From the IMG/VR virus record IMGVR_UViG_3300009503_000030, positions 6,542-70,541 of that record: DNA of 64,000 nucleotides, one strand, 5' to 3'. Under the pieces are notes generated by a model. It did not search any database, was not told the origin of the DNA, and worked only from the letters and a program-made list of their open reading frames with translations. Below, in pieces: positions 8,377 through 64,000 of this stretch (positions are counted from its first letter, which is position 1; each line of letters begins with the position of its first letter). The position numbers and the translations under genes were made by a program. Origin of the DNA: a virus.

Positions 8377-10233
8377 ATGGCAACCAGGAACTGCCGGTAC
8401 GGACTCTTGGCTCCCGTTGAGGGGCGGGACGAGGTGATGCGCCAACTGCGGGTCGCGCACGAGGTCTACAATACGCTCGTCCAGTACGAGCGGGAGCGGC
8501 GGAAGGCGGTGGCCGATGCGACCCGCGAGACCGACGCGGAGGTCGCGCGGCTGGAGGCGGAGGTCGAGGGGCTGCTGTCCCGACTGGCGGACCTGCGTGC
8601 TGCGATCCAGGCGGCACGGGCCGGCGGTGGGGACAACGCGCGTCTCGCGGAGGCCCAGGCGGAGGCGCGCGAGTGCCGGCGGCTGCTTGGAGAGGCGAAG
8701 GGCGCGCTCCGAGAAACCAAGCGGGTCGCGCGGCAGAACCCCGCGCTGCGGGAGCGACTCGAGGCCATCAAGGCCGAACACCATCGGCGTCAACTCGCGC
8801 TCTACCATGAGGTCGTAGAGGTGGGCAAACGGCTGTACTGGCCCTCGTGGAACGACACGAAGGCCGCCGTCGAGCAGGCGGCGAAGAAGACGAAGAACGG
8901 CGACCTGCGGTTCCGGCGGTGGACCGGCGAGGGGAGCCTGTACACCCAGGTCCAAGGGAAGCAACCGGTCTGCGAGACGGCGACCTCGCGCTGGGTCCGG
9001 ATCGACCCAGTGCCGCCCGAGGCGCATGATCCCGCGACGCCGCGCGGAGAGCGCCGGCGTCTGTGCCGGACCCGCTTCTATCTGCGCATCGGGAGCACGG
9101 GTCCACGGGAGGACCCTGTGTTCGCGGTGTTTCCGATGGTCTATCACAGGCCGCTGCCGGAGGGCGCCGTGATCTGCGGGGCGCGGATCGTCCGGCGCAA
9201 GAACGCGGACCGCGAGTACTGGCAGGCCGTGGTGACGGTGGACCTGCCGGATGAGGCCGCGCAGAAGAGCGGGCCGCGCGTCTGTGCGCTCGACATTGGA
9301 TGGCGGGACCGGAGGCCCGGGGGCTCCGACGAGCCGCCGCCGCTGCGAGTCGCGGCCTGGTACGACGGGGACCGGACGGGCGAGGTGCTCGTGGACCCGT
9401 CGGTCTTCGAGCGATGTGCGAAGGCGGACGCGATCCGGAGCACGCGGGACCGGATGCTCGATGACCTGCGGGCGTGGCTCTGCGAGGCGCGCAAGGACCT
9501 TCCCGAGCACTTGGCGGAGGCGCTCGCGGGCTGTGGTCTGTGGCGGGCCGCGGGGAAGTTCGCGCGGCTGCGCGGGCTTCTGAGTTCCGGCGATGTGCCG
9601 GCGGAAGTGCGAGACCGGTTCCTCGCGTGGTATCACCGCGACCGGCACCTTTGGCAATACGAGCACGGCATGAGGTTGAACGCGATCCGCGACCGCGACA
9701 ACGCCTATCGGATCGCGGCGAAGCGGTTCGCCCAGGAGTACGACGTGCTGATCGTCGAGGCGACGGGCACGCCGCAGAAGGAGCGGGACCCGAAGGCGCC
9801 GGCGGCGATGGACCTGCGGCCCTTGATCAAGGAGCCGGACCCCGAGGACGCGCCGCCGCGAGACCAGCAGCGCGAAAGGAAAGAGAACAAGGCGCACCAC
9901 CAGCGGTTCATCGCGGCGGCAGGGACGTTCAGGCGCTACCTGTTGGAAGCCGCGGCCAAGTACGGGACGCGCGTGGTGATGGTTCCGTGCGAGCAGACGA
10001 CGTTGGAGTGCTGGGTCTGCGGGGCGAAGTACGAGTTCGACCGGTGGCCGCTGATGCACGAGTGCGAGTCCTGCGGTACGACCTGGGACCAAGACCAGAA
10101 CGCCGCGCGGAACCTGTTTGCGAGGGGCGCTGTGGCGGCGAAAGGGCCAGGGCCGCTCGAAGTGCAAGGAAAACCGCGACTTCCGCGATGGCATAAGCGC
10201 CACAAAGCGTACCGCGAGGGCGGGGCGGGGTGA
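8377..10233 (+). CDS. cas12m: Type V CRISPR effector, Cas12m (V-M/V-U1)-like, 618 aa
   Basis: YGLLAP, QLRVAH, coiled-coil REC region, LYWPSWN, LRFRRWTGEG, HRPLP, RuvC ALDIGWR / LIVE / DQDQNAARN, Zn finger CWVC...CESC; directly upstream of the array. Confidence 0.88.
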   Translation: MATRNCRYGLLAPVEGRDEVMRQLRVAHEVYNTLVQYERERRKAVADATRETDAEVARLEAEVEGLLSRLADLRAAIQAARAGGGDNARLAEAQAEARECRRLLGEAKGALRETKRVARQNPALRERLEAIKAEHHRRQLALYHEVVEVGKRLYWPSWNDTKAAVEQAAKKTKNGDLRFRRWTGEGSLYTQVQGKQPVCETATSRWVRIDPVPPEAHDPATPRGERRRLCRTRFYLRIGSTGPREDPVFAVFPMVYHRPLPEGAVICGARIVRRKNADREYWQAVVTVDLPDEAAQKSGPRVCALDIGWRDRRPGGSDEPPPLRVAAWYDGDRTGEVLVDPSVFERCAKADAIRSTRDRMLDDLRAWLCEARKDLPEHLAEALAGCGLWRAAGKFARLRGLLSSGDVPAEVRDRFLAWYHRDRHLWQYEHGMRLNAIRDRDNAYRIAAKRFAQEYDVLIVEATGTPQKERDPKAPAAMDLRPLIKEPDPEDAPPRDQQRERKENKAHHQRFIAAAGTFRRYLLEAAAKYGTRVVMVPCEQTTLECWVCGAKYEFDRWPLMHECESCGTTWDQDQNAARNLFARGAVAAKGPGPLEVQGKPRLPRWHKRHKAYREGGAG

Positions 10234-10289: not shown

Positions 10290-11027
10290 GTGGAAAGGGT
10301 ATCTCTGGACCTTACAATCAGAGACAAAAAGCGCAAGTGAAACGCGCCCTCGACCGGCTGCGGGTGGAAAGGGTATCTCTGGACCTTACAATCAGAGACT
10401 CCGGCGACCGCCAGGATCGGGTACGGGTGCGGGCCGAGTGGAAAGGGTATCTCTGGACCTTACAATCAGAGACTCGAGTGCACCCGACGGCCCCGGACCC
10501 GGTACACCCGCGTGGAAAGGGTATCTCTGGACCTTACAATCAGAGACCTCGCGGTCGGACGGCTACACCCCTGGCTACACCCCGTGGAAAGGGTATCTCT
10601 GGACCTTACAATCAGAGACCCGGACTGGCTCTCCGACGCGCTCTGTGCGCTCGCGAGTGGAAAGGGTATCTCTGGACCTTACAATCAGAGACCGGCGCGA
10701 GCCGCACAACGGACACCCCGCCCCCCGTCGCAAGGGTATCTCGACACCTTCGAAGTCGAGACCGAGTGCCCCGGACCCCGTGCACGTGCGGCAAAGGTAT
10801 CTCGACACCTTGGGAGTCGAGACACGCACCGGCACCGGCGCCGCGTCCGGACGCGAGAGTGGCAAAGGTATCTCGGCACCTTTGAAGTCGAGACGGGGTA
10901 GGTCGCGCCGCACACGCCGCACCGCAGCCGCATGGAAAGGGCATCTCGACGCCTTTGAAGACGAGACATGGTGGCGGCGCATCCAGCCTAGGTTGAAAGG
11001 GCATCTCGACGCCTGTGAGGTCGAGAC
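10290..11027 (+). CRISPR. CRISPR array, 11 repeats of 36 bp and 10 spacers of 24-38 bp
   Basis: Six identical GTGGAAAGGGTATCTCTGGACCTTACAATCAGAGAC at 10290, 10364, 10438, 10512, 10584, 10657, then five variant repeats at 10727, 10788, 10859, 10932, 10992. Confidence 0.98.
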
Positions 11028-11738: not shown

Positions 11739-13379
11739 CTATCGCATGTTCTCTGAGGATGAAAGCCCCAGCAGAAGTTCCTCCACCATGTCCTCGGCGC
11801 TTGCACCAGCGCCATCGAGCAGCCTGTCGGAGAGCTCCTGCTTCGCGATCAAGAGGCTTGCGAGACGCTGGTCAATGGTCCCGTCAATCACCAGGTGGTA
11901 GACGTTCACGGGGTCCGTCTGTCCAAGCCGGTGTATCCGGTCTTCGGCCTGCGTGATGTTTGCCGGAACCCAGTCAAGTTCCGCGAACACGGCGACTCGC
12001 GCGGCGGTCAACGTGAGCCCGACACCTGCCGCGGTAATCGAGCCGATGAAAACGCGGGTTCCGGCGGCTGTCTGAAAACGCTCAACGAGGCCGTCCCGCT
12101 CCTTCTGTGGGGTCTCCCCCGTCAAGACCACGGCCCCGTAGTCCCGTAGCCGTTCTGCCAAGATCGCAATCACGTCCTGATGATGCGCGAAGACCACGAC
12201 CTTCCGCTCGGAGTCGAGGATGTCCGCCACCCACTCCGCGACAACCGGCGCCTTCGCGAGGGCCGTGGTGTGGCGGACGCGGCTGATCTCGGTGAGCGCG
12301 ATACGACGGGCCTCCCGAAGGCGCGCGACCGCCTGGGCGTATGCGGTCGTGTCGTCAGGAGCCGCCTGGACCGCCTCCTGGGAAGGGCATCGCGACGCCT
12401 TGAAGAGCGAGACGTGCAGGGTTCGCAAGCAGAGCCCGTGCTTCTCCCAGAGCACCCGTTCGCAAGACAGGTCCACGGAGTCCGGTGGCGAGAGAATGAC
12501 GAGCGACCGGCGCTTCGGGGGGAGTTGCGACAGCACGTCCCTCTTCAGCCGGCGGATCATGATGGTCTCGCGGAGAATGGATGCGAGTTCCTCGATATTG
12601 GAGGCCCCGTCGGCCCTCCAGATCGAGCGCTGCACGCGGCCCTTCGTCCAGATGGTTTCGGTGTGCCCTGCGCAGTAGCGGACCTCGAACTGATGACGGG
12701 ACCGCCAGCGTCCTGGGTCCAGCGCTTGGAGCGTGGTGTAGAGCTCGGCTGGGCGATTGAGGACTGGGGTCCCCGTCAAGAAGATGCGCCGTGATGCGGC
12801 GTGGACGAGGCCGCGTTGTCCGGCGGACGCCGTGTACCAGCGCCCGTATGCGTTCTTGCGGTAGCGCGGCGGGACGCCGCAGATCGCGCGCGTCTGCTGG
12901 GCGTCGGGGTTCTTCAACCGGTGCGACTCGTCCACAATGAGCAGGTCCCAATGCTGCATGAGCATTGACAGTCGCATTGGATCGCGGACCTGCTCGTAGT
13001 TGGTGATGGCGAGGAGATTGCCGTCGGGCGGCACGGGGCCATCCACGATGACCACATCGAAGGGTCGCACGAGCCAACGGCGCGCCTCGTAGGCCCAGTT
13101 GGTCTTGAGCGTCGCGGGGCAGATTACGAGCACCCGTCGGATCGCGGGGTCCGCGTTGACCAGTCCAAGCGCCTGGATGGTCTTGCCCGTGCCCATCTCG
13201 TCGGCGATCAGAGCGTTTTGTCTCGCAAGACAGAAGGCGATGCCCTCCTCCTGGAAGGGGAGGTAGTGCAACCCGTCGGGAGCGGGGATTGGGGGTCGGG
13301 CGGTGGTGAACGCTGGTTGGGGGGAGAACTTGGGAGGTCCGCCCGACCCCGCGGTGGGTCCAGTGGGGTATCCCATCAT
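11739..13379 (-). CDS. SNF2-family (HARP/SMARCAL1-like) helicase
   Basis: DEMGTGKT, DESH, LTGTP, QAEDRIHRLGQ. Confidence 0.95.
   Translation of the reverse strand: MMGYPTGPTAGSGGPPKFSPQPAFTTARPPIPAPDGLHYLPFQEEGIAFCLARQNALIADEMGTGKTIQALGLVNADPAIRRVLVICPATLKTNWAYEARRWLVRPFDVVIVDGPVPPDGNLLAITNYEQVRDPMRLSMLMQHWDLLIVDESHRLKNPDAQQTRAICGVPPRYRKNAYGRWYTASAGQRGLVHAASRRIFLTGTPVLNRPAELYTTLQALDPGRWRSRHQFEVRYCAGHTETIWTKGRVQRSIWRADGASNIEELASILRETIMIRRLKRDVLSQLPPKRRSLVILSPPDSVDLSCERVLWEKHGLCLRTLHVSLFKASRCPSQEAVQAAPDDTTAYAQAVARLREARRIALTEISRVRHTTALAKAPVVAEWVADILDSERKVVVFAHHQDVIAILAERLRDYGAVVLTGETPQKERDGLVERFQTAAGTRVFIGSITAAGVGLTLTAARVAVFAELDWVPANITQAEDRIHRLGQTDPVNVYHLVIDGTIDQRLASLLIAKQELSDRLLDGAGASAEDMVEELLLGLSSSENMR
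12378..12413 (+). repeat. Solitary CRISPR repeat inside the helicase gene (antisense)
   Basis: CTGGGAAGGGCATCGCGACGCCTTGAAGAGCGAGAC. Confidence 0.8.
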
Positions 13380-13687
13380 CCTCCTTTTCGGCGCGTGATG
13401 CAAGCGCCGTCATCACGATGCGTTCCGACGAGTTCATCGAGGCACACGTCGAGGACATGCGCCAGCAGCACCATGTCGGTGGCCGATGGGACGGTGCGCT
13501 CCGTCTCCCAGTTGGCGATGGTATTGATCGAGACGCGCCGACCGGTGTATTCGGCGAAGGCCGCGGCCAGGTCCTTGCGGCGCCAAGAGCGGGCCTCGCG
13601 ATGGTGGCGGAGAAGCACGCCGCAGAAGGTCTCGACTTTGAAGGCGTCGCGATGCCCTTTCCATTTGGGCCTGTGCATCAGAGACAT
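13376..13687 (-). CDS. XRE-family HTH regulator
   Basis: LRHHREAR...DLA...TIANWE...P...LAHVLDVCLDELVG. Confidence 0.85.
   Translation of the reverse strand: MSLMHRPKWKGHRDAFKVETFCGVLLRHHREARSWRRKDLAAAFAEYTGRRVSINTIANWETERTVPSATDMVLLAHVLDVCLDELVGTHRDDGACITRRKGG
13629..13664 (-). repeat. Solitary CRISPR repeat in the 5' end of the HTH gene (sense)
   Basis: ATGGAAAGGGCATCGCGACGCCTTCAAAGTCGAGAC. Confidence 0.9.
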
Positions 13688-22540: not shown

Positions 22541-22576
22541 GCGTTGAGGGTATCTCTGGACCTACGAAGCAGAGAC
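22541..22576 (+). repeat. Solitary CRISPR repeat downstream of the capsid gene
   Basis: GCGTTGAGGGTATCTCTGGACCTACGAAGCAGAGAC; TCTCTG/CAGAGA stem intact. Confidence 0.85.
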
Positions 22577-44387: not shown

Positions 44388-45028
44388 CCGGCCCTCCCGT
44401 ATCGCGCCTTTCAAGGTGTCGCGATACCCTTTCCACCAGACCATACCTTTCGCGGAACTCCCGCTCAAGTCGGGCGATCTCGGGGTCCGTGATCGCCTCC
44501 AACGGGGGCACGATCTCCTCCGCCGGCGGAGGCTCCGATGCGTATCGTTCCGCGAGCCTGTAGAGCATCAGGAGGCCGATGGGGACCCGTGGCGCCTGGT
44601 CAACGGGGATTCTGCACGGGCTGAACCACCACGATCTGGCGACTCTCTTCGCCGCCTTGTCTATACCGGCGAAAAAAGTCGGCTTCGAACCGCGCCACCT
44701 CCTCCGATACCGCGACGAAGATTTCGGGTCCGAGCTGGTCAAGCGGACGCTTGAACCAGTCTGGCGACTCCTCCACGAGCACTGCGCATCGGGCCATCGC
44801 CAGGAGCAGCGTCTGGATGTCTGCGGGCAACGATTGCCACGCGGCCCCCCGCGCCAGTCCAGAGAGGGCCACCGCCAGTTGCCGCACGTCTTCTGCTGTC
44901 GGTAGCCGCGCGACGAACGTCCCTTCGAGGTCCTCTCCCTTCGGAGACCGGTAGCGGACGGCGAACCGATGCTTTCCATCTGGGATGGCCTCCGCGGTCT
45001 CGCGAACGATGTCCTGGATGGAGGGCAT
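44377..45028 (-). CDS. Tail assembly chaperone (44600-45028) with probable frameshifted extension to 44377
   Basis: Lies between tube and tape measure; slippery TTTTTTC at 44677-44671 with an overlapping +1 ORF. Confidence 0.65.
44401..44436 (-). repeat. Solitary CRISPR repeat 13 nt before the tape-measure start
   Basis: GTGGAAAGGGTATCGCGACACCTTGAAAGGCGCGAT; compensatory GTATCGCG/CGCGATAC stem. Confidence 0.88.
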
Positions 45029-52428: not shown

Positions 52429-52433
52429 GACGC

Positions 52434-52469
52434 ACCTCCTTGTCAAAGGTGTCAAAACACCCTTTCCAC
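52434..52469 (-). repeat. Degenerate solitary CRISPR repeat overlapping the MTase stop and the next RBS
   Basis: GTGGAAAGGGTGTTTTGACACCTTTGACAAGGAGGT; 24 of the first 27 nt match the repeat consensus and the 3' arm is replaced by the RBS. Confidence 0.65.
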
Positions 52470-54779: not shown

Positions 54780-54780
54780 A

Positions 54781-55062: not shown

Positions 55063-55469
55063 GCAGTGGAACGCTGACCCAGCATTTCGCGATCCACGAG
55101 TTTCAGTGCGCCCACGGGCTCATTGGGAATATCGAGGCGGCGCGCGTCGTCTGCGCGCAGTTGGAAGCCCTCCGCGCGGAGGTGGGGAAACCCATCGTTA
55201 TCATCTCCGGATACCGGTGCCCTGAGTGCAACAGGGCGGCCCAGGGGGCCACGCACTCCCAGCATCTCTTGTCTCGCGCCGCGGACATCGTGATCGAGGG
55301 ACTGGCGCCTGATGCGGTGGCCGCGATCATCGCCAAGTTGATCAACGATGGCCGGATGCAACAGGGTGGGATCGGCATCTACTACGCGGAGCGCGGCACC
55401 CGTCGGCGCCCGTTTACCCATTACGATATTCGTGGGTATCCGGCTCGTTGGAGCGTACCACGGAGGTGA
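55059..55469 (+). CDS. Peptidase M15A endolysin
   Basis: HF...EF.C, SGYRC...N, SQH...AADI, GIGIY, H.DIRG...RW. Confidence 0.9.
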   Translation: MSSGTLTQHFAIHEFQCAHGLIGNIEAARVVCAQLEALRAEVGKPIVIISGYRCPECNRAAQGATHSQHLLSRAADIVIEGLAPDAVAAIIAKLINDGRMQQGGIGIYYAERGTRRRPFTHYDIRGYPARWSVPRR

Positions 55470-55472
55470 AAG

Positions 55473-55844
55473 ATGGCGGCGACCGACGATGGAATCCTCT
55501 TGGGGCGGATCGAGGATATCTGCCGGCGCCTCGAGACGGTGGATAACCGGCTCGATGCCATGAGGCGGGAGTTCGCGGACTTCCGGGCCACGATCAGCGC
55601 GTGGCGCGGCGAGACCGAGCAGCGCCTGGAGCAAGGCACAAAGACCTTCGCGGCGCAAGGACGGAGGCTCGACCGCCTCGAGGCTGTCGCGGACGCGGCG
55701 AAGGTCGGTTGCGCAGCCGAGAAGCGGATTGCGGACTCGGCGCGCGAACGGCGAGACCTGATGCGAACGGTTGCCACGATCCTGACGGCGGCGGCGGCGT
55801 TCACCTCGCTGGCGGTCACGCTCTGGTATCAGGTGATCCGATGA
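55473..55844 (+). CDS. Coiled-coil protein with C-terminal TM helix (holin-like)
   Basis: Follows the endolysin; hydrophobic C-terminus. Confidence 0.6.
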   Translation: MAATDDGILLGRIEDICRRLETVDNRLDAMRREFADFRATISAWRGETEQRLEQGTKTFAAQGRRLDRLEAVADAAKVGCAAEKRIADSARERRDLMRTVATILTAAAAFTSLAVTLWYQVIR

Positions 55845-56134
55845 GACACGTCGAGCGGGAGCCGCGATTGCGGATCGTCCTGCACAAGGACGAGCATGAC
55901 GGCGAGACATTCTACACGATCTCGCTGACCGCTCGTGGCTTCACGGGTGTCATACCGGATACATGGATCGAGCCACGGCAGAAGTTCGCAACTACTGACG
56001 CCGCACGGGTTTTCGCGGTCAACAGGCTTGCGGACCTGCGGCGCGATGTGGAGAATCTGATCGAGCGGGCCAGGAAGGCACTGGACGTGCTCGACAAGGC
56101 CCGCCAGGAGGTGCTCGATGGGAAGGACGTTTGA
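55841..56134 (+). CDS. hypothetical protein
   Basis: ATGA-coupled. Confidence 0.55.
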   Translation: MRHVEREPRLRIVLHKDEHDGETFYTISLTARGFTGVIPDTWIEPRQKFATTDAARVFAVNRLADLRRDVENLIERARKALDVLDKARQEVLDGKDV

Positions 56135-56591
56135 ACGGGCGGGTGCGTGGAACACGGTGCGCGGCCTCGAGTGGGCGGCGCTCGTCGTGGCGGCGCTGCT
56201 CGGGGTCGGAGAGGCGATCCTGGGACACGGGGCCGGACTCGTTCCTCCGGCGGTGATCGCGGCAGTAGCCGTCGCGGTCAAGGCGCTGCGCGCGGTGCTC
56301 GCGGTGACCGCCGACGTGCGGTCCTCGACGGTGTCCCCGGCGTCCTGGGCTGTCGCCGTGGTCCTCGCGCTCGTCGGGAGTCTCGCGGGCGAGGTGGCTG
56401 GACAGAAGCAGGAGGTGGTCCATGAAATCACCGTCATCGTGGGTCCGGATGTTGCTGGCGGTGCCGTTCGTGATGCTCTTGACGCCGCTGGTGATCCTGG
56501 TCCAGTGGATCATCTGGGCGGCGGGGACCCTGTAGAAAGATATCTCGACACCTTGGAAGGCGAGACATGCTCCGGCGGGTCCGGAGATTGA
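56118..56591 (+). CDS. Membrane protein (about 3 TM, holin candidate)
   Basis: Three hydrophobic segments; GGAGGT RBS. Confidence 0.6.
   Translation: MGRTFERAGAWNTVRGLEWAALVVAALLGVGEAILGHGAGLVPPAVIAAVAVAVKALRAVLAVTADVRSSTVSPASWAVAVVLALVGSLAGEVAGQKQEVVHEITVIVGPDVAGGAVRDALDAAGDPGPVDHLGGGDPVERYLDTLEGETCSGGSGD
56531..56566 (+). repeat. Solitary CRISPR repeat (variant type)
   Basis: TGTAGAAAGATATCTCGACACCTTGGAAGGCGAGAC. Confidence 0.8.
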
Positions 56592-56639
56592 CATTGGCGG
56601 GGGCCAATGGCGCGAGACACGGGGTGGCAACCGTGACCG

Positions 56640-56675
56640 CGCATGAGGGTATCTCTGGACCTTCAGACCAGAGAC
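56640..56675 (+). repeat. Solitary CRISPR repeat (major type) 23 nt before the lipoprotein start
   Basis: CGCATGAGGGTATCTCTGGACCTTCAGACCAGAGAC; TCTCTGG/CCAGAGA stem. Confidence 0.87.
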
Positions 56676-56698
56676 GATGCCGCCAGAGGAGGTACCAG

Positions 56699-56923
56699 AT
56701 GAGGCTGTTGATCGTGCTCGTGCTTTCGTGCGTCTTCTTGGCGTGCGGCACCATCACGCCGGCGATCAAGGAGGCCACGGACGTGATAGCCTGCCGGTAC
56801 GCGGCCTACGTCTCGCGAGACGAGGCGCTCAAGCCGGACGAGCAGGCGCTGCGGCGGGAAATGGCCGAGAACCTGCGGCATCAGGTCGGGCTGACCGGCG
56901 CCTGTCCCGACTACGGGAGGTGA
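56699..56923 (+). CDS. Small lipoprotein (spanin-like candidate)
   Basis: MRLLIVLVLSCVFLAC lipobox. Confidence 0.7.
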   Translation: MRLLIVLVLSCVFLACGTITPAIKEATDVIACRYAAYVSRDEALKPDEQALRREMAENLRHQVGLTGACPDYGR

Positions 56924-56926
56924 GCC

Positions 56927-57301
56927 ATGCCATTGGCCGTCCTGGACAAGGACGCGCTGAACGCCCTGCTCGTCGAGGCGCTCGGTGCTGCCCCTGAGGA
57001 CCCCGAGGTCATTCTTGGTGACACGCTGCGGCTCGTTGCGGTAGAGGACGTTCCGCGCATCCTGGAGATTTGGACGCGAGTCGCGCGGTACACGGCGGAA
57101 TGGCTCGCGCTCCTCGCTACCTCTGAGGACCAGTTGGCGATTTCCATCGCGCGCGGGAACGTGGTCACGGCGGTCGTCGTGATGCACCAGCGGACCGAGG
57201 AGGCCCTGCGCAAGCGCGGGGTTGAGGCGGCGCGGCGCGCGGCGATCTCGTTCGTCTCGGCGGCTGTCCGGTTCATCGCGCGCGCGGTGCTTGGGGCCTG
57301 A
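56927..57301 (+). CDS. hypothetical protein
   Basis: GGAGGT RBS. Confidence 0.65.
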   Translation: MPLAVLDKDALNALLVEALGAAPEDPEVILGDTLRLVAVEDVPRILEIWTRVARYTAEWLALLATSEDQLAISIARGNVVTAVVVMHQRTEEALRKRGVEAARRAAISFVSAAVRFIARAVLGA

Positions 57302-57702
57302 TGACGGAGGAGAAGATGCGGTACATCTTGAAGGGCACGTCAGGACGGTACAAAGCAGAGGCCGTTGTGGACCTGCCGTCGGTTGCTGTCTCGAAGAAGA
57401 TGCTGACGAAGCGTCTGCGAGACATACTGAAGGATGTCCCAGACGATGCGATCCAGGCCACGCAGGCGGAGACCGCCATGTTGACGCGGGGCCTCATCTA
57501 CGGCAACCTCGCGCGCCTCTACAGCCACGACGGCGACTCCTTGTTGGAGATCACGGACCATCTCCAAGAACAACCGTCGGAGATCAGGGTGCCTCGTCAC
57601 GGTTTCCTGCTCTACCTTGAGTATGGGGCGCATCCATACGCCGTCTTCTACTTCCACCCTGATGCGTTCGGATATGGCGCTGGGTTGGTCGAGGGAGAGT
57701 GA
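57301..57702 (+). CDS. hypothetical protein
   Basis: TGATG coupling. Confidence 0.6.
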   Translation: MTEEKMRYILKGTSGRYKAEAVVDLPSVAVSKKMLTKRLRDILKDVPDDAIQATQAETAMLTRGLIYGNLARLYSHDGDSLLEITDHLQEQPSEIRVPRHGFLLYLEYGAHPYAVFYFHPDAFGYGAGLVEGE

Positions 57703-59153
57703 ATGTCTCCATGGGGCGATCCGAACAGATCAGGATGCTACCCACGGAGCCACGCATTGTCCGTGACCCGCGATCCGGACGTGTGTTCATGCGTCTCTAC
57801 CACGTCGCGCCACCGCAGGCGGCGGCACTGGCTCCTCGTGCAAAGGTCGTTGTGGACCCACGGACAGGCCGGCTGACTGTCCAGCGGATTCCGTCAACAA
57901 CAGAACCGCCGCGTCCGGCACCAGCACCAGCGCCGGCACCAGCTCCGAAGCCTGCGCCGAAGCCTGCGCCGAAGCCTGCACCGAAGCCACAGCCTGAGCC
58001 ACGGCCAGCGCCAAAGCCTGCACCAGAACCTGCACCAGAACCAGAACCAGAACCGCGCCCTGAACCACAGCCCACGCCGCAGCCACCAGCAGAACCCACA
58101 ACAGGACCACGGGAGGTCCTGCGAGAAATCGCAGAAAAAGCAGTGTCCGTCATGGAGGCGATGGCCCAGACCGACGAGCGCGGACCAGGACGACATCACG
58201 ATATGCAGGAACGGCGAGAACGCCTGAGGCGTGTAGCGCAGGGACTAGAAATGCGCGGCAAACACGTCGAAGCGCAGACCACTCGTGATGTGGTTGCGGC
58301 CATGGGTATCGTCCTCCCAATGGAGGAGATGCCGAGTTTTCTGCGAGACGCAGAGGCGAAATTGCGCGCTGTTCTGACCCGCCTGAACGACCCCGATGAT
58401 GAGGCCACGCGACGCTTCCACACGGAAACAGCGGACCGGATTCGGATGCTGGCGGACGAATACGAAACAATCGTGCGGGAGTACCACGATACCGAGCGGA
58501 TGCTCTCCGCCATCCGCTGGACGAACCAGGTAGAGGTGTCCGTGAGATACAGCCATTTGCACGGTCTCGCTGCGGATATCCGTCGTGGGAGGCTACCCGC
58601 ACTCTGTGGTCTCATTGAAACTGCCTACAGACAGAAGTACCTCCTGACAATAACTTTGGCATCAGGGTTCGGTTCCGCGGACGGCTGTTATGTGGATGGC
58701 TTTTTCTCTGGGGCAGGCACGACGCCCAGTCCAGGCGAATACAATGTATTAGCAAACTCCCATTCCGTCCTCTGGCACGAACTCGGCCACGCATTGGAAG
58801 CGGCCCTCCCAGATAGGATGCTTGAGTACGTCTTGCGATGGAGGGGTAATCGTGGTGCCATGGCAAACTCTGATCTCGGGTCCTATTATGTTGGGGATTT
58901 CGCGAGTACCTACGTCGGAAAGGCTTACAAGGCGAGAGCAACATTTCCCTATGATGCTGATACACCCGAGAAGCGGAGTAGGGAACGTTCCGCGACCGAG
59001 GTCATATCCACCGCCCTCGAATGGGCCTTCGGCGAGAGGACCTGGGATGGTCTCGCAAACACCCAGATTCGCCTGGCACTCGCCGCAGTGCGCTACGCGG
59101 CGAGCCAAGTCATGACCGACGAAGAAGCCGCCGCCTACCAGGAATCTCGATGA
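57699..59153 (+). CDS. Zincin-like metallopeptidase with Pro-rich linker
   Basis: PAP/PKP/PEP repeat at about 57905-58100; HELGHALE and distal EVIS..LE. Confidence 0.75.
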   Translation: MNVSMGRSEQIRMLPTEPRIVRDPRSGRVFMRLYHVAPPQAAALAPRAKVVVDPRTGRLTVQRIPSTTEPPRPAPAPAPAPAPKPAPKPAPKPAPKPQPEPRPAPKPAPEPAPEPEPEPRPEPQPTPQPPAEPTTGPREVLREIAEKAVSVMEAMAQTDERGPGRHHDMQERRERLRRVAQGLEMRGKHVEAQTTRDVVAAMGIVLPMEEMPSFLRDAEAKLRAVLTRLNDPDDEATRRFHTETADRIRMLADEYETIVREYHDTERMLSAIRWTNQVEVSVRYSHLHGLAADIRRGRLPALCGLIETAYRQKYLLTITLASGFGSADGCYVDGFFSGAGTTPSPGEYNVLANSHSVLWHELGHALEAALPDRMLEYVLRWRGNRGAMANSDLGSYYVGDFASTYVGKAYKARATFPYDADTPEKRSRERSATEVISTALEWAFGERTWDGLANTQIRLALAAVRYAASQVMTDEEAAAYQESR

Positions 59154-59273
59154 CTGTCACAATCGTTCCCAAGCATGGCGTACCGTCAAAGCACCTTGTA
59201 AACGGTGCCTGAAAGCCCCATAATCCAGATGCAGACCGTCCACGCCAAAAGGCGTGGACTACAAGGAGGTGTC

Positions 59274-59576
59274 ATGGCTGAAAAACCCTACGCGCAAGCC
59301 GTCGTGGTCCTCGACGGGCAGGTGATCGCGGAGTTCACCTGGCCCACCATCAGCTCCGAACCAACGGTCACTGGACCGCTTGGACCGGTTCTCCGCAAGA
59401 TGGTGGACCAGCAGGCCGCCCTCTCCTACGCCCCCTTCGGGCACCGCACAATCGCAGGACTCACCGACCTCTTCTATCCCGTGATCCGCGACTCCAAGTT
59501 CGCGCGCCCACCAGAACTCCAATGGGTCATCCAACCATCGCCCCCTGAGGATTACGACCCCAACATGATCTACTGA
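59274..59576 (+). CDS. hypothetical protein
   Basis: AAGGAGGT RBS. Confidence 0.65.
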   Translation: MAEKPYAQAVVVLDGQVIAEFTWPTISSEPTVTGPLGPVLRKMVDQQAALSYAPFGHRTIAGLTDLFYPVIRDSKFARPPELQWVIQPSPPEDYDPNMIY

Positions 59577-59605
59577 GGCGCACGAGGAGCTGGCCGACTA
59601 CCTCT

Positions 59606-60277
59606 CTACGACGGGCTCTCCCCCCTGAGACCCCGTGGATTCCGCCGTGCCGCCTCCGCGGCGGCCCTCTGCACCACCTCCGGCTTTGGATACGGCAGCG
59701 TGACAAGCGTCCTGTCGGGCAGCGCCACATCCAGCCCATCCCCAGGGTCCGCAAAATCCACCCCCACGACCCGCGCCATCCCGCCAGCGTCTCGCGGTGG
59801 AACCATCATCTGGACCTTCTTCACCTTCCCATCAGACCCAAGGTCCGCGATCAACGTGCCTGGCGGCAACGCCGTCAGCGTGCCGTGATACCCCCTCCCA
59901 GCCAGCCTCTGCGGCTCCCGCCAGTTCAACCGCCCAGGGTAGAACACGACCCGCAGCGACCCGTCCTCTGCCTCCGCATGGACCGTGTAGGTGTCCCCGT
60001 CTAACGGCAGCCGCTTCCTACCCGTGAAGTAGTCACACGCCGCCCGCTCCTCCCGCGTCAACCGTGGTATCTCCGCGCGACTCGCGTACCCGACACCAGG
60101 CGCCCCAGCACGCACCCACACCCGCTTCTGGTACGGCGCCCCACGCGACGGATGCACCGTCTGAATCACTGGCACCAACCCAGGACGCCCAGCAATCACG
60201 CCACTGTCTCGACTTTCAAGGCGCCGAGATGTCCCTTTCATCCGGAGCGCGGACACGAAGTACAATGGCCTGCTCAT
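59606..60277 (-). CDS. hypothetical protein with GLVPV..WV motif, paralogue of 11064-11678
   Basis: GGAGGTG RBS; LPPGTL, LPD.T. Confidence 0.65.
   Translation of the reverse strand: MSRPLYFVSALRMKGTSRRLESRDSGVIAGRPGLVPVIQTVHPSRGAPYQKRVWVRAGAPGVGYASRAEIPRLTREERAACDYFTGRKRLPLDGDTYTVHAEAEDGSLRVVFYPGRLNWREPQRLAGRGYHGTLTALPPGTLIADLGSDGKVKKVQMMVPPRDAGGMARVVGVDFADPGDGLDVALPDRTLVTLPYPKPEVVQRAAAEAARRNPRGLRGESPS
60206..60241 (-). repeat. Solitary CRISPR repeat as codons 13-24 of the gene (sense)
   Basis: ATGAAAGGGACATCTCGGCGCCTTGAAAGTCGAGAC. Confidence 0.87.
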
Positions 60278-60292
60278 CAGCAGCACCTCCAC

Positions 60293-60321
60293 TTGACACG
60301 ATACCCCATCCCGAATACCCT
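60293..60321 (+). promoter_or_regulatory. sigma70-type promoter
   Basis: TTGACA-17-TACCCT. Confidence 0.6.
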
Positions 60322-60348
60322 CGTCAACGGACTCGGTGGGAGACCCCC

Positions 60349-60729
60349 ATGACCCAAAACTCCCGTCTCGCAGAACTTGCCAGCGCCATCTACGAAGCCA
60401 CGCGCCTCGAAGCCTCATGGTCACAACGCCCCATCGTCCCGCCGCCCTGGTCCGAGCGCGAACCCGACTTCCAACGGCAGTTCATTTCGATCATCGGCCA
60501 GTATCTCACGGCCCAACGCCTCCCAACCCCAGAAGAAGCCCACCAGTCGTGGGTCGAAGCGTACACCGCAATGGGATGGAAATACGGTCCAACCCGTGAC
60601 CCAGTAGCCAAGACCCACCCCGACATGCTCCCGTTCGCCGAACTCCCCAAAGACGAGCGAGACAAGGACGCCATCTTCCTCGCCTTCGTCTGGCTCGCCC
60701 GCCAGGTCCTCGCCTCCGTACTCCGCTGA
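60349..60729 (+). CDS. RyR-domain protein
   Basis: H.SW......GWKYGP.RD...KTHP..LPF.ELP..E..KD. Confidence 0.85.
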   Translation: MTQNSRLAELASAIYEATRLEASWSQRPIVPPPWSEREPDFQRQFISIIGQYLTAQRLPTPEEAHQSWVEAYTAMGWKYGPTRDPVAKTHPDMLPFAELPKDERDKDAIFLAFVWLARQVLASVLR

Positions 60730-60936
60730 TGTCAGAAAGTCCGCACCCTGCGCGTCCTCGCATCGGACCGGTAGGAGCGCCGGCCCGCCCCCGTTATCCC
60801 CCCGACAACCCCCAACCCAGGGCGCCACACGGCGCCCCCCGCCTATCGCGCACCGCGACCTGTCAGAAACCACGCGCCCCACACGTCCATCATGTGGAGA
60901 GGCCGGAATGGGCCGGCCCCCACAGGGAGGCGCACC

Positions 60937-61275
60937 GTGAAACTCGCCCACGTGGGGTTCCACCCGTTGAAGGAGAAAAGCAAAGCGGCTCTCGCCGCCA
61001 TCGGGATCACCGAGGTCATTGAGGTCAAGATGCCGGACCTCCCGACCTTCCACATGAGCAGTGAACAACTGGCGGACGCCGTCGCCGCCTTCGCGGCGAC
61101 CCTCCCGCCAGCGGACTGTGCCCTCATCGAGGGGGACTGCCTCATCGCGTTCCCCTTGATGCAGTGGCTCTATCTGAAAGGCATCACCATCGTCTGCCCC
61201 GTTCATACGGGGGACGAGGACGGCGGTGAAACCACGTTCGTCGCCCTTCCCTCTTGGCATGAGGTGACAACATGA
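60937..61275 (+). CDS. Divergent Csx20/Csx15-like Rossmann protein
   Basis: FHPL....AAL..IGI.EVI...ALIEGD...L..KGI.IV.P. Confidence 0.5.
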   Translation: MKLAHVGFHPLKEKSKAALAAIGITEVIEVKMPDLPTFHMSSEQLADAVAAFAATLPPADCALIEGDCLIAFPLMQWLYLKGITIVCPVHTGDEDGGETTFVALPSWHEVTT

Positions 61276-61985
61276 TGCTCGTCTTCATCGGGCCTGGACA
61301 CGTCAACCCGCTCACGAAGGCGGCCCTCGCCGCCGAACTCGACATCCACGAGATCGTCGAGTTGTCCCCGTCCACAGACATCACCGACCTGTCCCTGTTC
61401 TTGGCCGCCATCCCCAAGGCCGACTACGCTCTCGTGGACTGGCCGTCGCCCCTTGAACTCACGCTGATCATCGCCCTCCAACAGAAGGGCGTGAAGGTTC
61501 TCTGGTACAAGACCATCGGCCCAGGCAATCCGTACATCCAGGGCGTCAACATCAAGAACCCGTGCAGCGGCTTCTACGTCCTGCCCGACCTCATACAACT
61601 CACGGCGGATGGCACCGCCAACGGGCACGGCGCCGCGACCGCCTGCATCGTCTCCGACGGGAAGGTCCAGACCAAGACGAAGGCGGCGCTGGCCGCCGAA
61701 CTCGGGGCCGCGAAGGTCATCGTCATCCAGCCCCCGCAGATCGATCCGCATGACATCGCGGGTCCGACGGTCGCCTTCGTCCAATCCCTCCCGAAGACGG
61801 ATTACGTCTTCTTCGATTGGCACTCGCCCGCCGCGTTCCTCGCGGCTACCCTGCTCCAAGCCGCCGGCGTCAAGATCGTCCATCCGAAAATCTTTGGACA
61901 TGGTGACGACCCCCACGTGGGAAACGCCTACTGGGGCTTCATCACCCTTCCCAATGTCAACGGCATTCAAAAGGAGGTCCCATGA
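61272..61985 (+). CDS. Two-repeat protein related to 60937-61275
   Basis: Internal duplication TKAALAAEL...PK.DY..DW.SP...LQ..GVK. Confidence 0.65.
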   Translation: MMLVFIGPGHVNPLTKAALAAELDIHEIVELSPSTDITDLSLFLAAIPKADYALVDWPSPLELTLIIALQQKGVKVLWYKTIGPGNPYIQGVNIKNPCSGFYVLPDLIQLTADGTANGHGAATACIVSDGKVQTKTKAALAAELGAAKVIVIQPPQIDPHDIAGPTVAFVQSLPKTDYVFFDWHSPAAFLAATLLQAAGVKIVHPKIFGHGDDPHVGNAYWGFITLPNVNGIQKEVP

Positions 61986-62569
61986 ATACCTGCACCTTCA
62001 CCATTCCAAAGCCCCCGACCGCCCGCATCATGCGGTCCATCAAGGACCCCTGGCTCCGCCAGGAAGTCCGCAGGTACGCCGGAGACCCCTGGACCCGCCT
62101 GATCGGCGCCGGCGTCGCCCTCCGCTACTACTCCCCGCCACGCTCCCTCCACCGGCGCATCCTCGCCGGCTACAAGCCCGCGATCCATCGCGCCGTCGAG
62201 GCATGGGTCGCCGGCCTCAGCCCCGAGGAACTCCGCACCATCCACGACCTGTTTCACGCAATGGTCTTCGCCCTCCGCCTCGACCTCGCCGACCTCGAGG
62301 CCCAGTTCACCGTCGAACCTGAATGGCAGGCCCAATGGCTCTACGCCTGCCAGACCCGCGACGACCTCGAGGCCCTCCGCGAACTCCTCGCGACAGACGG
62401 GTCCTACGACTACGACTCCGACCTCCGCGACCTTGACGCCGACGCCTGGGCCTTCGCCCTCACCGTACCCCCCTTCTCCGACGATCTCCGGCTTTCCGCC
62501 GCCTCCACCTTCGACCCAAACGCCTGGTGGACCTTCCCACTCCGAGACCATGGCACCACCCTTCCGTGA
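61982..62569 (+). CDS. hypothetical protein
   Basis: AAAGGAGG RBS. Confidence 0.65.
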   Translation: MNTCTFTIPKPPTARIMRSIKDPWLRQEVRRYAGDPWTRLIGAGVALRYYSPPRSLHRRILAGYKPAIHRAVEAWVAGLSPEELRTIHDLFHAMVFALRLDLADLEAQFTVEPEWQAQWLYACQTRDDLEALRELLATDGSYDYDSDLRDLDADAWAFALTVPPFSDDLRLSAASTFDPNAWWTFPLRDHGTTLP

Positions 62570-62629
62570 TCTGTCATGGAACCACACCGTCAAACGTATC
62601 TGTTGATGGAAGGTTGAAAAGGAGCCCGT

Positions 62630-63286
62630 ATGGACGACAACATCCGCGACCTGATCCGACGCTTCTACGAACTGAAGCAGAAACACCATCTCGCACCCGT
62701 CACCCAACCGACCACGCAACCCGCCCAACCGACCGCCCCCGAACACCTCCTCTCCGACCTGCGGCGGTCCCTCGCCCCCTCCGTCACCGAGATCATCGAG
62801 GACTACATCCACCACTGGGCGGAGGACATCCCCCTGCCCCCCGACGAACACGGCAACCCCCGCGTGATTCCTGGCCGCCGATGGAACGGCCTCCGCCACC
62901 CGCGCTACTGGTACTGCTCGTGCGACGCCGACAACCTCTTCTGGCGCTGCGGCGCGGACGAAAGCACCCTCGACTCCTGCCGCCTCGTCTCCAACGCCCG
63001 CAATCCAGACGACGGCGAGGACGACGACGGCCTCGACCCCAACGACCCCCAAGCCCTCGACCGACGCGCCGCCAAACTCCTGCGCGGCGCCGGCCCGTCC
63101 GTCCGAACCGTCCTCGCCCACGAACTCCGGCGCCTCGGATACAACGGCCTCCGCAACCCGTCGCCCCGCTGGCAGGGCTGCTCCTGTACCCTTGACGCCC
63201 TCATGCCCTGCCTCGTCGGCGGCGGCGCCCCCTACGCCGTCCACTGCGTCGCCGCCATTGACGCCCACCGTCCCTCCGACGCCTAA
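62630..63286 (+). CDS. hypothetical Cys-rich protein
   Basis: Duplicated (W/Y)NGLR.P...C.C.D motif. Confidence 0.62.
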   Translation: MDDNIRDLIRRFYELKQKHHLAPVTQPTTQPAQPTAPEHLLSDLRRSLAPSVTEIIEDYIHHWAEDIPLPPDEHGNPRVIPGRRWNGLRHPRYWYCSCDADNLFWRCGADESTLDSCRLVSNARNPDDGEDDDGLDPNDPQALDRRAAKLLRGAGPSVRTVLAHELRRLGYNGLRNPSPRWQGCSCTLDALMPCLVGGGAPYAVHCVAAIDAHRPSDA

Positions 63287-63306
63287 CCCTCCATCGAACA
63301 TCCCCC

Positions 63307-63335
63307 TTGACTCGCCCCCATACCCTCGCTATCGT
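63307..63335 (+). promoter_or_regulatory. sigma70-type promoter
   Basis: TTGACT-17-TATCGT. Confidence 0.6.
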
Positions 63336-63516
63336 CTCCACAACGGGTCGGGTGCCGGCTTGGCCAGCCGCCAACCTGATCCAGGGAGCAGAGGCTCCCT
63401 CGTGGCAGGTAGGCCCCCCACCGAGGCGCAAGCCTCGACCCCCACAGCCTGCCACCTGGGCGCCAAAGGCCCGGCCCGCCACTCTCATGTGGGGGTCTGC
63501 GGCCATGCCGCGCCTC

Positions 63517-63550
63517 GTGGAAAGGGCATCTCGACCTTCGCGGTCGAGAC
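63517..63550 (+). repeat. Solitary CRISPR repeat (34 bp) directly before the RBS of the replication gene
   Basis: GTGGAAAGGGCATCTCGACCTTCGCGGTCGAGAC then GAAGAAAGGAGAAAGCC-ATG. Confidence 0.9.
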
Positions 63551-63567
63551 GAAGAAAGGAGAAAGCC

Positions 63568-64000
63568 ATGATCACACCCGATTTCCGTGTCTCCGCCGAC
63601 TTCGTCACCCACTGGAAGACCACCGCGCTCCGCAACGCCTGCGGCGATGCCGGCGTCTTCTCCCTCCTCTGCCTCTGGTCCTACGCCACATGCAACCGAC
63701 CAGATGGTTGTCTCGCTGGTCTCTCCGATGACGACATCGAGCACATCGCCCGATGGTCAGGGCCACGCGGTCTCCTCGTCAACACGCTCATCCAACTCCG
63801 CTTCCTCGACCGAGACCCAAACAACACACTCATCATCCACGAGTGGTCCGAGCGCCAACCATTCATTCAGAAACTATACGCCGCGCGCGCAAGAGGCACT
63901 GTATGCAAATCCGAACATCGCCGCGGTATGCACCGAACGCTAAAATATACCGCCCCCCCTGGGACTCCGCCCCCCACACCCCCCACCTCTTCTACCCCCC
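63568..64000 (+). CDS. Phage replication initiator/replisome-organiser-like protein, runs off window edge
   Basis: Manual translation: F.TH.KT..L, LL.LWSYA, PDG, IE.IA.W.G, L....FLD, IHEW.E.Q; open to the end of the window. Confidence 0.7.
   Translation, partial: MITPDFRVSADFVTHWKTTALRNACGDAGVFSLLCLWSYATCNRPDGCLAGLSDDDIEHIARWSGPRGLLVNTLIQLRFLDRDPNNTLIIHEWSERQPFIQKLYAARARGTVCKSEHRRGMHRTLKYTAPPGTPPPTPPTSSTP

What the first reader, a model, noticed from the sequence alone, without database searches (positions are those of the whole stretch)
63517..63570. Solo repeat whose spacer position is the RBS and start codon of the replication initiator
Seen: the repeat has a perfect TCTCGACC/GGTCGAGA stem and is followed directly by GAAGAAAGGAGAAAGCCATG, so the 20 nt in guide position are the Shine-Dalgarno plus ATG. 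Inference: loading this RNA into Cas12m would sequester the initiation site and cut off the leader, acting as a translational switch on replication.
Basis: partly seen in the sequence, partly recalled or inferred. Interest (0 to 1): 0.85.

Follow-up and report, generated by a model that had tools for sequence, protein, structure and literature searches.

The report
Lone Cas12m repeat before replication gene
A hot-spring phage that carries its own DNA-binding CRISPR protein (Cas12m) has one extra copy of that protein's RNA handle directly in front of the ribosome-binding site of its replication-initiator gene, which suggests, without proof, that the phage uses a CRISPR protein on its own messenger RNA.

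Summary
Window 63517-63550 (+) is a real solitary copy of the CRISPR repeat of the phage's own type V-M system (cas12m 8377-10233, array 10290-11027). A model built from array repeats only finds it at 39 bits, E about 1e-9. It keeps the handle's stem, the AAGG/CCTT pseudoknot partners and the GAGAC end. The next 20 nt are AAGGAG plus the ATG of a 620-aa replication-initiator gene (PHROG hits; dnaB follows).

It probably lies inside a transcript. A promoter-like site sits at 63307-63335, followed by a 174-nt structured leader that is 88% identical in one related phage. That relative has leader, RBS and initiator gene with no repeat, so the repeat is a lineage-specific addition.

It is one of 10 solitary copies in this 70.5-kb circular genome. 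Five end 5-23 nt before a start codon.

Best reading (about 0.4): Cas12m binds and processes the mRNA here and occludes or destroys the initiation region. This is untested and I found no RNA data. Rivals are a guide against repeat-less rival phages, a decoy, and a recombination scar.

No paper I found describes this. Earlier AI notes of this scan report similar arrangements in other Cas12m phages; I did not check them.

The parts
63307..63335 (+). Promoter-like site TTGACT-17-TATCGT upstream of leader, repeat and initiator gene
   Evidence: 9 of 12 matches; 1 site found against 0.2 expected in shuffles. The block conserved with G001 begins 6 nt after it.
63341..63514 (+). 174-nt structured 5' leader, conserved in relative G001 ahead of a different replication-initiator gene
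   Evidence: 88% identity while the flanks do not align; 45 of 45 proposed pairs are formed in both sequences, with 3 compensatory pairs in helix 98-106/148-156; z -3.3. No Rfam family.
63517..63550 (+). Solitary type V-M (Cas12m) CRISPR repeat, variant 'B' type, 34 nt
   Evidence: 39.2 bits, E 1.2e-9 with the array-only model. The nearest other copy is 3.3 kb away.
63551..63570 (+). 20 nt in guide position: Shine-Dalgarno AAGGAG (63556-61) and ATG (63568-70)
   Evidence: No second match in the phage at up to 4 mismatches in 18 nt, and none in G001 at up to 3.
63568..64000 (+). 5' part of the 620-aa replication-initiator gene; it runs over the circular junction to C1:1469
   Evidence: library protein P0002 is 620 aa and differs from the junction-spanning ORF at 3 residues.
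8377..10233 (+). cas12m, the cognate effector
   Evidence: PDB 23vw_A 'Cas12m' E 1.7e-56 over residues 54-631 of the 666-aa frame; Cas12m2 8hhl E 2.6e-20.
10290..11027 (+). CRISPR array: 6 identical type-A repeats, then 5 diverged type-B repeats
12378..12413 (+). Solitary repeat, antisense inside the SNF2 helicase gene
   Evidence: E 3.9e-4.
13629..13664 (-). Solitary repeat forming codons 9-20 of an XRE-type HTH regulator (ATG 13687)
   Evidence: HTH_31 E 9.4e-8. E 4.6e-10.
22541..22576 (+). Solitary type-A repeat about 145 nt after ORF 21002-22396
   Evidence: E 3.6e-7.
44399..44436 (-). Solitary repeat ending 11-13 nt before ATG 44387 of a 618-aa tail-module ORF
   Evidence: E 4.7e-9.
52434..52469 (-). 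Degenerate solitary repeat whose 3' end is the SD of the gene starting at ATG 52428
   Evidence: E 0.0099.
56531..56566 (+). Solitary type-B repeat after a small membrane-protein ORF in the lysis region
   Evidence: E 9.2e-9.
56640..56675 (+). Solitary type-A repeat ending 23 nt before ATG 56699 of a small ORF with a lipoprotein-like signal
   Evidence: E 9.5e-7.
60206..60241 (-). Solitary repeat, possibly codons 13-24 of ORF 59606-60277. That ORF has no family hit and did not pass my GC3 filter.
   Evidence: E 5e-9.

Best explanation
The element is a genuine solitary copy of the crRNA handle of the phage's own Cas12m. It is embedded in the 5' untranslated region of the replication-initiator mRNA, between a conserved 174-nt structured leader and the Shine-Dalgarno sequence.

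Shown:
- It is homologous to the array repeats.
- It keeps the stem, the pseudoknot partners and the GAGAC end.
- A cognate, intact cas12m is in the same genome.
- A promoter-like site and a conserved leader lie upstream.
- SD+AUG occupy nt 6-20 of the guide position.
- The same repeat-then-RBS geometry occurs at four other genes of this phage.

Inferred: when Cas12m is present it binds this handle on the mRNA and cuts at or just 5' of it, as it does with pre-crRNA. That releases the leader. Cas12m then keeps the first ~17-20 nt (SD and AUG) in its guide channel, so 30S subunits cannot load, or the mRNA is trimmed like a crRNA 3' end. Initiator synthesis would therefore fall as Cas12m accumulates. 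This makes it a cis-acting protein-operator switch, like a coat-protein/replicase operator, built from a CRISPR repeat.
For: - Identity as a repeat: array-only model R2 gives 39.2 bits, E 1.2e-9. In the 15-sequence alignment, 90.2% of cells are paired, 4 of 11 pairs change on both sides, and 0 of 500 shuffles reach the covariation score.
- Effector: Cas12m at E 1.7e-56 to PDB 23vw.
- Transcript context: the only promoter-like site in 62500-64000 is at 63307-63335. The conserved block starts 6 nt after it and ends 2 nt before the repeat. The leader has 45 of 45 pairs kept and 3 compensatory.
- Geometry recurs: 10 solitary copies at E <= 0.01, 9 of 10 sense to the local gene. Five end 5, 13, 16, 17 and 23 nt before a start codon.
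- Enrichment: with an automatic list of 62 genes that missed the initiator gene, 4 of 10 end 1-30 nt before a called start, against a random mean of 0.13, reached in 0 of 20000 permutations.
- One further copy removes the start codon of an HTH regulator if cut.
- Published enzymology: Cas12m processes pre-crRNA at or upstream of the repeat, uses a 36-nt scaffold and a 17-bp guide, and binds without cutting DNA (PMC10442227 sections 7 and 12; PMC11013384 passages).
- The SD is largely unpaired in the local fold, so the default state would be ON.
Against: - There is no experimental or transcript evidence: no RNA run holds the phage.
- The one relative with the same leader and an analogous initiator gene has no repeat there, so the repeat is dispensable for initiator expression and recent.
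- This copy has a loop 2 nt shorter than every other copy, so binding by Cas12m is not assured.
- Targets include early and late genes alike, so there is no simple temporal logic.
- One copy is antisense (12378) and one lies in a 3' region (22541); a translational switch explains neither.
- Elements that avoid coding sequence in a compact genome will often end up near starts, so part of the enrichment may be trivial.
- A more distant Cas12m phage (KX853510) shows no solitary copies at up to 3 mismatches in 27 nt; 17 of 17 matches are in its array.
Confidence: 0.4

Rival explanations
1. Guide against rival phages. The solitary repeat turns the first ~20 nt of the initiator gene's initiation region into a crRNA. 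On the phage's own DNA the PAM position is occupied by the repeat end (GAC), so self is spared. A co-infecting relative that has the same initiation region without the repeat, and with a PAM, would be bound by Cas12m and its initiator gene silenced.
For: - Cas12m silences by DNA binding, and V-M systems are linked to competition between mobile elements (PMC11013384 passages; PMC11656645 passages).
- DNA targeting works on either strand, so this reading also explains the antisense copy at 12378.
- A worked example exists in the relative. G001's solitary repeat sits inside a small ORF, and its guide matches our phage's uninterrupted allele at 56515 with a 14-nt PAM-proximal exact match and a C/T-rich flank TCATC.
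- Removing the repeat would leave CTC in front of this guide.
Against: - No sequence with this initiation region but without the repeat was found: viral contigs exact scan gave 0 hits, and G001 has no match at up to 3 mismatches.
- The PAM of this Cas12m is unknown.
- The 5' flanks of the 10 copies share no PAM-like motif; only 2 of 10 are CTC.
- Initiation regions are poorly conserved targets, and this reading does not predict the tight spacing to the SD.
Confidence: 0.2
2. Decoy or titrator (Racr-like). The solitary repeats soak up Cas12m, either the host's or the phage's own late in infection, into complexes with useless guides. Their position near gene starts only reflects where non-coding DNA and transcription are available.
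For: - Solitary repeat units in viruses inhibit cognate Cas proteins as RNA anti-CRISPRs (PMC10651486, passages read).
- Ten transcribed copies would outnumber the 10 array spacers.
- A related type-B array exists on a separate metagenome contig (L013), so hosts or rivals with like repeats may exist.
Against: - Racr-type units are described as not associated with cas genes, whereas here the cognate effector is in the same genome.
- A decoy need not abut SD sequences. In the 281-nt gap before the initiator gene, the repeat sits at the extreme 3' end.
- The host and its CRISPR content are unknown.
Confidence: 0.15
3. Recombination scar or module boundary. Dispersed 36-nt repeats promote exchange of gene modules, and this copy is a by-product of the swap that joined the conserved leader to a different initiator gene. 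It has no RNA function.
For: - Homology with G001 ends 2 nt before the repeat, and the genes downstream are unrelated in their N-terminal domains.
- The genomes are mosaic.
- Repeat positions differ by about 60 nt in the shared lysis block, which indicates turnover.
Against: - Diverged copies keep base pairing through compensatory changes, and 9 of 10 are in sense orientation. That argues for selection at the RNA level.
- A scar would not be expected to keep the 5' GGAAAGGG, the CCTT and the GAGAC motifs.
Confidence: 0.1
4. The repeat is coding. Translation starts at an in-frame ATG 21 or 27 codons upstream, and the repeat is read as part of an extended initiator protein.
For: - The frame is open from 63307 and contains two upstream ATGs.
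- Two other copies appear to lie inside N-terminal coding sequence.
Against: - 137 of the 150 best homologues start within 5 residues of ATG 63568.
- A strong SD sits 6 nt before that ATG.
- In G001 the homologous upstream ATG is followed by a stop after 8 codons.
Confidence: 0.03

Closest known systems
Type V-M CRISPR repeat / Cas12m crRNA handle (Cas12m2, GoCas12m, MsCas12m; PMC10442227, PMC11013384)
   Same: It is a ~36-nt unit with a 6-8-bp stem closed next to a terminal C, 5' purines that pair with the loop (pseudoknot) and an ...GAGAC end. A cognate cas12m lies in the same genome. The known enzymes process at or upstream of the repeat and hold a 17-20-nt guide.
   Different: It is not in an array. 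The 'spacer' is the phage's own ribosome-binding site and start codon. The loop is 2 nt shorter than in the array repeats.
Viral solitary repeat units and RNA anti-CRISPRs (Racr; PMC10651486)
   Same: It is a single CRISPR repeat in a virus genome, transcribed, intergenic and structurally intact.
   Different: Racr-type units mimic the host's repeats in viruses without cas genes. Here the effector is the phage's own, there are 10 copies, and half abut translation initiation regions.
crRNA-like regulators (CreR, crlRNA, mini-arrays, tracr-L; PMC10120712, passages read; abstracts only of 10.1101/2023.03.10.532045 and 10.1101/2024.10.29.618823)
   Same: A repeat-derived RNA is used for regulation rather than immunity.
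   Different: Those act in trans on promoter DNA through partial guide matches. This guide has no second match in the genome. The proposed action here is in cis on the RNA.
Phage protein-operator translational control (MS2 coat protein on the replicase operator hairpin; T4 RegA and RegB).
   Same: A phage protein binds or cuts at the initiation region of an mRNA, the replicase or replication gene among them, to shut off translation.
   Different: There is no sequence or protein relationship. The effector here would be a CRISPR protein and the operator a CRISPR repeat.
Engineered Cas6f-based translational repression (MORTISE; PMC13478208, abstract and outline seen)
   Same: A CRISPR RNA-binding protein is used for translational repression aimed at translation initiation regions; the paper's outline names ribosome occlusion as the mechanism.
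   Different: That system is synthetic and uses a class 1 RNase. Its design details were not read.

Membership tests
Type V-M (Cas12m) CRISPR repeat | Sequence and structure match to the repeats of a cas12m-adjacent array | tested here: met
   The array-only covariance model R2 gives 39.2 bits, E 1.2e-9. See also the alignment.
Type V-M (Cas12m) CRISPR repeat | Stem next to a terminal unpaired C, plus pairing of the 5' region with the loop (pseudoknot), as in the Cas12m2 scaffold | tested here: met
   Stem T-A...A-T with GAGAC end; AAGG and CCTT are both present. Across 15 copies, 90.2% of cells are paired and 4 pairs covary. The structure was compared with the text of PMC10442227 section 7, not with coordinates.
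Type V-M (Cas12m) CRISPR repeat | Cognate effector present | tested here: met
   Cas12m at 8377-10233, E 1.7e-56 to PDB 23vw_A.
Type V-M (Cas12m) CRISPR repeat | Bound and processed by Cas12m | not testable with these tools
   Needs EMSA or a cleavage assay. There is no RNA data.
Solitary repeat unit (SRU), as defined by SRUFinder | No other full or partial repeat within 100 bp; intergenic | tested here: met
   The nearest other model hit is 60206-60241, 3.3 kb away. The unit lies between stop 63286 and ATG 63568.
RNA anti-CRISPR (Racr) | Virus lacks the cas genes and mimics the host's repeat | tested here: not met
   The phage encodes its own cas12m and array. The host is unknown.
RNA anti-CRISPR (Racr) | Inhibits interference by the cognate Cas protein | not testable with these tools
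   Needs an interference assay.
crRNA-like regulator (CreR, crlRNA, mini-array) | Guide partially complementary to a promoter or other DNA target elsewhere, usually with a second degenerate repeat | tested here: not met
   The only match of the 18-nt guide at up to 4 mismatches is itself. There is no second repeat nearby.
Intrinsic terminator | GC-rich hairpin followed by a T run | tested here: not met
   The hairpin is followed by GAAGAAAGG. No + strand terminator-like site was found in 62500-64000.

The most novel reading that the evidence does not exclude
Cas12m in this phage lineage has been taken over as a post-transcriptional regulator. Its crRNA handle serves as a portable cis-operator written onto at least 7 of the phage's own mRNAs (replication initiator, HTH regulator, tail, lysis and other genes). 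A CRISPR effector would thus set translation of phage genes. Each loaded complex would at the same time carry a guide against relatives that lack the insertion.
Probability: 0.3. Interest if true: 0.9.

Novelty: new variant of a known kind. Interest (0 to 1): 0.68.

Why it matters
If Cas12m acts on this site, it would be a natural case of a class 2 CRISPR effector controlling translation of the carrier's own gene through a repeat used as an RNA operator. I found no description of this in the Cas12m, SRU/Racr or crlRNA papers retrieved.

It would explain why phages keep a cleavage-free, adaptation-less Cas12m. It would give a compact protein/34-nt-operator pair for synthetic translational control. 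It would also link replication control to CRISPR.

The site is well suited to testing:
- The default state is predicted ON.
- The operator is short.
- A natural repeat-less version of the same leader exists in a relative.

Tried and rejected
Relatives of the initiator gene:
- The search for related loci in viral contigs found none.
- blastn against 50,697 phage records found none.
- An exact scan for the initiation region in viral contigs gave 0 hits.

Repeat pattern scans:
- Viral contigs gave 4 hits, all weak (18.7-25.1 bits) and judged chance; I read only L002, which looks coding.
- Metagenome contigs gave 2 hits: one related short array (L013) and one chance hit.

Leader pattern scans:
- Viral contigs returned only G001.
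- Genome contigs gave 4 hits that share only the 21-mer.
- Rfam gave nothing at gathering score. At E <= 10 there was only an implausible snoRNA hit.

Expression: no RNA holder is listed. Contigs of two hot-spring DNA runs laid on 44001-64000 are near-identical (2 other letters; X2 record 16 covers 60835-63975 with 0 differences), so there is no natural variation to use.

Second DNA target of the guide: none in the genome or in G001.

Array spacers against G001 and against the phage itself: only short matches.

Generality: phage KX853510 (Cas12m 32% identical) has 17 of 17 repeat matches inside its array. More diverged solitary copies were not sought there.

A promoter I read by eye before the copy at L001:4907 (TTGCGA-17-TATCCT) is below the scan tool's threshold; 0 sites were found.

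My GC3-based gene caller found only 62 genes (74% coding) and missed the initiator gene, so an enrichment test restricted to intergenic DNA was not attempted.

Supplementary files of the papers were not opened. The SRU lists of PMC10651486 and PMC10120712 could contain V-M or phage cases that I could not see.

Full report
**What the window is.**
- The assembly is a single 70,541-bp contig, 65% G+C, with a 39-bp terminal direct overlap. I therefore treat it as a circular or circularly assembled genome of about 70.5 kb; the window is C1:6542-70541.
- It is a tailed phage. A tail-sheath gene (phrog_279, E 2e-41) lies at 45480-47849 on the minus strand.
- Near-identical DNA occurs in two hot-spring metagenome runs.
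- It carries a type V-M CRISPR system. The ORF at 8377-10233 matches solved Cas12m structures (23vw_A E 1.7e-56; Cas12m2 8hhl E 2.6e-20).
- The array follows at 10290-11027, with six identical 'type A' repeats and then five diverged 'type B' repeats.

**The observation.**
- 63517-63550 reads as a 34-nt unit: a 5' GGAAAGGG, an 8-bp stem TCTCGACC/GGTCGAGA with loop TTCGC, and a terminal C. The sequence GAAGAAAGGAGAAAGCCATG follows directly.
- The 34-mer is unique, with 0 expected in shuffles.
- I built a covariance model from the array repeats alone, so the solitary copy was not in the training set. It scores the copy at 39.2 bits, E about 1.2e-9.
- In an alignment of 15 distinct copies, the main stem and an AAGG:CCTT pairing of the 5' part with the loop are formed in 90.2% of cells. 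Four of 11 pairs change on both sides, and 0 of 500 column shuffles reach the covariation score. Slid controls pair at 30-45%.
- This matches the published Cas12m2 scaffold: 36 nt, a stem plus pseudoknot, a last C unpaired and read by the protein, and a 17-bp effective guide (PMC10442227, section 7 read).
- The copy at 63517 belongs to type B and is the only one with a loop two bases shorter. Its two inner pairs use the CC that pairs with AAGG in the other copies.

**The gene behind it.**
- From ATG 63568 the frame runs over the contig junction for 620 codons.
- A library protein of 620 aa differs from it at 3 residues in the Pro-rich linker.
- Residues 10-97 hit phrog_9474 'replication initiation protein' (E 3.3e-11). 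The C-terminal half hits phrog_5810 and phrog_345 (E 4.7e-5, 1.8e-4). There is no Pfam hit.
- The next, overlapping gene is a DnaB-type helicase (DnaB_C E 1.9e-55). 'Replication initiator' is a fair name.
- The N-terminal domain family is large, with 4041 representatives at E <= 1e-3. 137 of the 150 best begin within five residues of our ATG, which supports 63568 as the start. Two in-frame ATGs further upstream exist.

**Is the repeat in the transcript?**
- The only sigma-70-like site on the + strand of 62500-64000 is TTGACT-17-TATCGT at 63307-63335.
- A relative, G001, helps here. It is IMG/VR contig 3300010938_000648: 41.8 kb, estimated 59% complete, with a Cas12m 92% identical.
- G001 shares with our phage only cas12m plus the array, a lysis block, a few other genes and one 174-nt non-coding block, 63341-63514, at 88% identity.
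- The shared block begins 6 nt after the -10 hexamer and ends 2 nt before the repeat.
- The block folds well (z -3.3 for 63341-63600). In a structure I proposed, all 45 pairs are formed in both phages. Three of the nine pairs of helix 98-106/148-156 are changed on both sides, and that helix crosses helix 62-70/107-115 as a pseudoknot. With two sequences this is suggestive rather than conclusive: 53 of 500 shuffles reach it, while slid controls pair at under 47%.
- In G001 the block is followed directly by an SD and the ATG of a 401-aa gene that hits DnaD-like loader and replication-initiation PHROGs (10469, 5810, 345). Its N-terminal domain is unrelated to ours. No repeat stands between them.
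- So the leader is a conserved 5' UTR of replication-initiator genes. The solitary repeat is an extra module, present only in our lineage, inserted exactly between leader and SD.

**It is one of a set.**
- Outside the array, the array-only model finds 10 copies at E <= 0.01: nine in the window and one at C1:4907-4941, outside the window. Three further hits at E 0.03-0.84 were not counted.
- Nine of 10 are sense to the local gene.
- Five end 5, 13, 16, 17 and 23 nt before a start codon, so the SD falls in, or at the edge of, the guide position.
- One forms codons 9-20 of an HTH_31/HTH_3 regulator. One may form codons 13-24 of an ORF without family support.
- One is antisense in an SNF2 helicase gene. 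One follows ORF 21002-22396. One precedes the second lysis-region copy.
- With a crude, automatic list of 62 genes that missed the initiator gene, 4 of 10 copies end 1-30 nt before a called start. The random mean is 0.13, and 0 of 20000 permutations reach 4.
- Caveat: elements excluded from coding DNA are bound to lie near starts in a compact genome. Even so, in the 281-nt gap before the initiator gene the repeat sits at the extreme 3' end.

**Mechanism.**
- Published Cas12m enzymes cut pre-crRNA at or upstream of the repeat, need no tracrRNA, remain on the handle plus guide, and bind DNA next to T/C-rich PAMs without cutting (PMC11013384 passages; PMC10442227 sections 7 and 12).
- Applied to this mRNA, Cas12m would detach the 174-nt leader and hold nt 1-20 in its guide channel, that is the SD at nt 6-11 and the AUG at nt 18-20. 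Ribosome loading would be blocked, or the message trimmed like a crRNA.
- For the copies inside N-terminal codons, the cut would remove the start codon. That gives the same sign of effect.
- The phage's own DNA is not a target, because the PAM position is the repeat end GAC. The guide has no other match in the genome.
- I rate this cis-operator reading at about 0.4.

**Rivals.**
- The main rival is that the same RNA serves as a guide against relatives that lack the insertion. G001's own solitary repeat, which lies in frame inside a small membrane-protein ORF, has a guide that matches our uninterrupted allele with a 14-nt seed next to TCATC. For the initiator site itself no such target sequence was found, and the PAM is unknown.
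- The decoy and recombination-scar readings are weaker, for the reasons given under the rivals.
- The readings are not exclusive.

**Comparison with what is known.**
- Solitary repeat units in viruses and their anti-CRISPR role are known (PMC10651486). So are repeat-like regulators acting on promoter DNA (PMC10120712).
- A preprint reports a phage Cas12m as the first of its kind. The passages I retrieved from it do not mention solitary repeats (10.64898/2026.09.14.751636; 0 occurrences of 'solo repeat' or 'solitary').
- My searches found no paper describing a Cas12m repeat in the carrier's own mRNA leaders.
- Earlier AI notes of this scan list the other copies in this genome, which I re-derived. 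They also report similar 'repeat before gene start' patterns in other Cas12m phages, which I did not test. They are leads, not support.
- A more distant Cas12m phage that I did test (KX853510) shows none at the stringency used.

**Verdict.** Its identity as a cognate solitary Cas12m repeat in the initiator mRNA leader is secure. The translational-switch mechanism is anatomically apt, recurrent in the genome and directly testable, but it is unproven and not conserved in the one relative available.

Noticed in passing
window 63341-63514 and L012:1501-1674 (G001:C1:2303-2476): A 174-nt structured, pseudoknotted 5' leader is conserved at 88% ahead of two non-homologous replication-initiator genes. 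It has 3 compensatory pairs and no Rfam family. It is a candidate new cis-regulatory RNA of phage replication genes. A short upstream ORF starts in its conserved 3' end (GCCATGCC).
   Followed up: partly
window 13611-13628 (-) against 9763-9780 (-): The guide after the solitary repeat at 13664 has a 14-nt PAM-proximal exact match (18 nt with 3 mismatches) inside the cas12m ORF, flanked by CGCTC. This could be autoregulation of cas12m. My rough estimate of the chance rate over 21 guides is about 0.01.
   Followed up: no
A by-eye promoter just upstream is below the scan tool's threshold.
   Followed up: partly
L010:1501-1536 (G001:C1:14152-14187, -) against window 56460-56566: In the shared lysis block, the relative's solitary repeat replaces a hydrophobic segment in frame inside a small membrane-protein ORF. 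Ours lies about 60 nt further on, over the stop codon. This implies independent gain or movement of the unit.
   Followed up: partly
window 10400-10437 (spacer 2) against C1:90-109: The PAM-distal 20 nt of array spacer 2 match the Pro-rich linker region of the phage's own initiator gene with 1 mismatch (E 4e-4 against the genome). Spacers 3 and 7 look similar by eye. The array may hold spacers from initiator genes of relatives, or the match may reflect low complexity.
   Followed up: no
window 10290-11027; G001:C1:41792-41827 and 11-191: Both phages have arrays that begin with type-A repeats and continue with type-B repeats. Two of the type-B spacers are short (24-25 nt).
   Followed up: no
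window 11020-11041: The last array repeat is followed by a tandem copy of its own end (GTCGAGACGAA twice). Like the solitary copy at 63517, it is followed by GAAG.
   Followed up: no
window 18149-18222 (-): tRNA-Pro (TGG), the only tRNA in the window.
   Followed up: no
window 52452-53435 (-): A D12-class N6-adenine DNA methyltransferase (E 5.2e-19). Its last 18 nt overlap the degenerate solitary repeat at 52434-52469.
   Followed up: no
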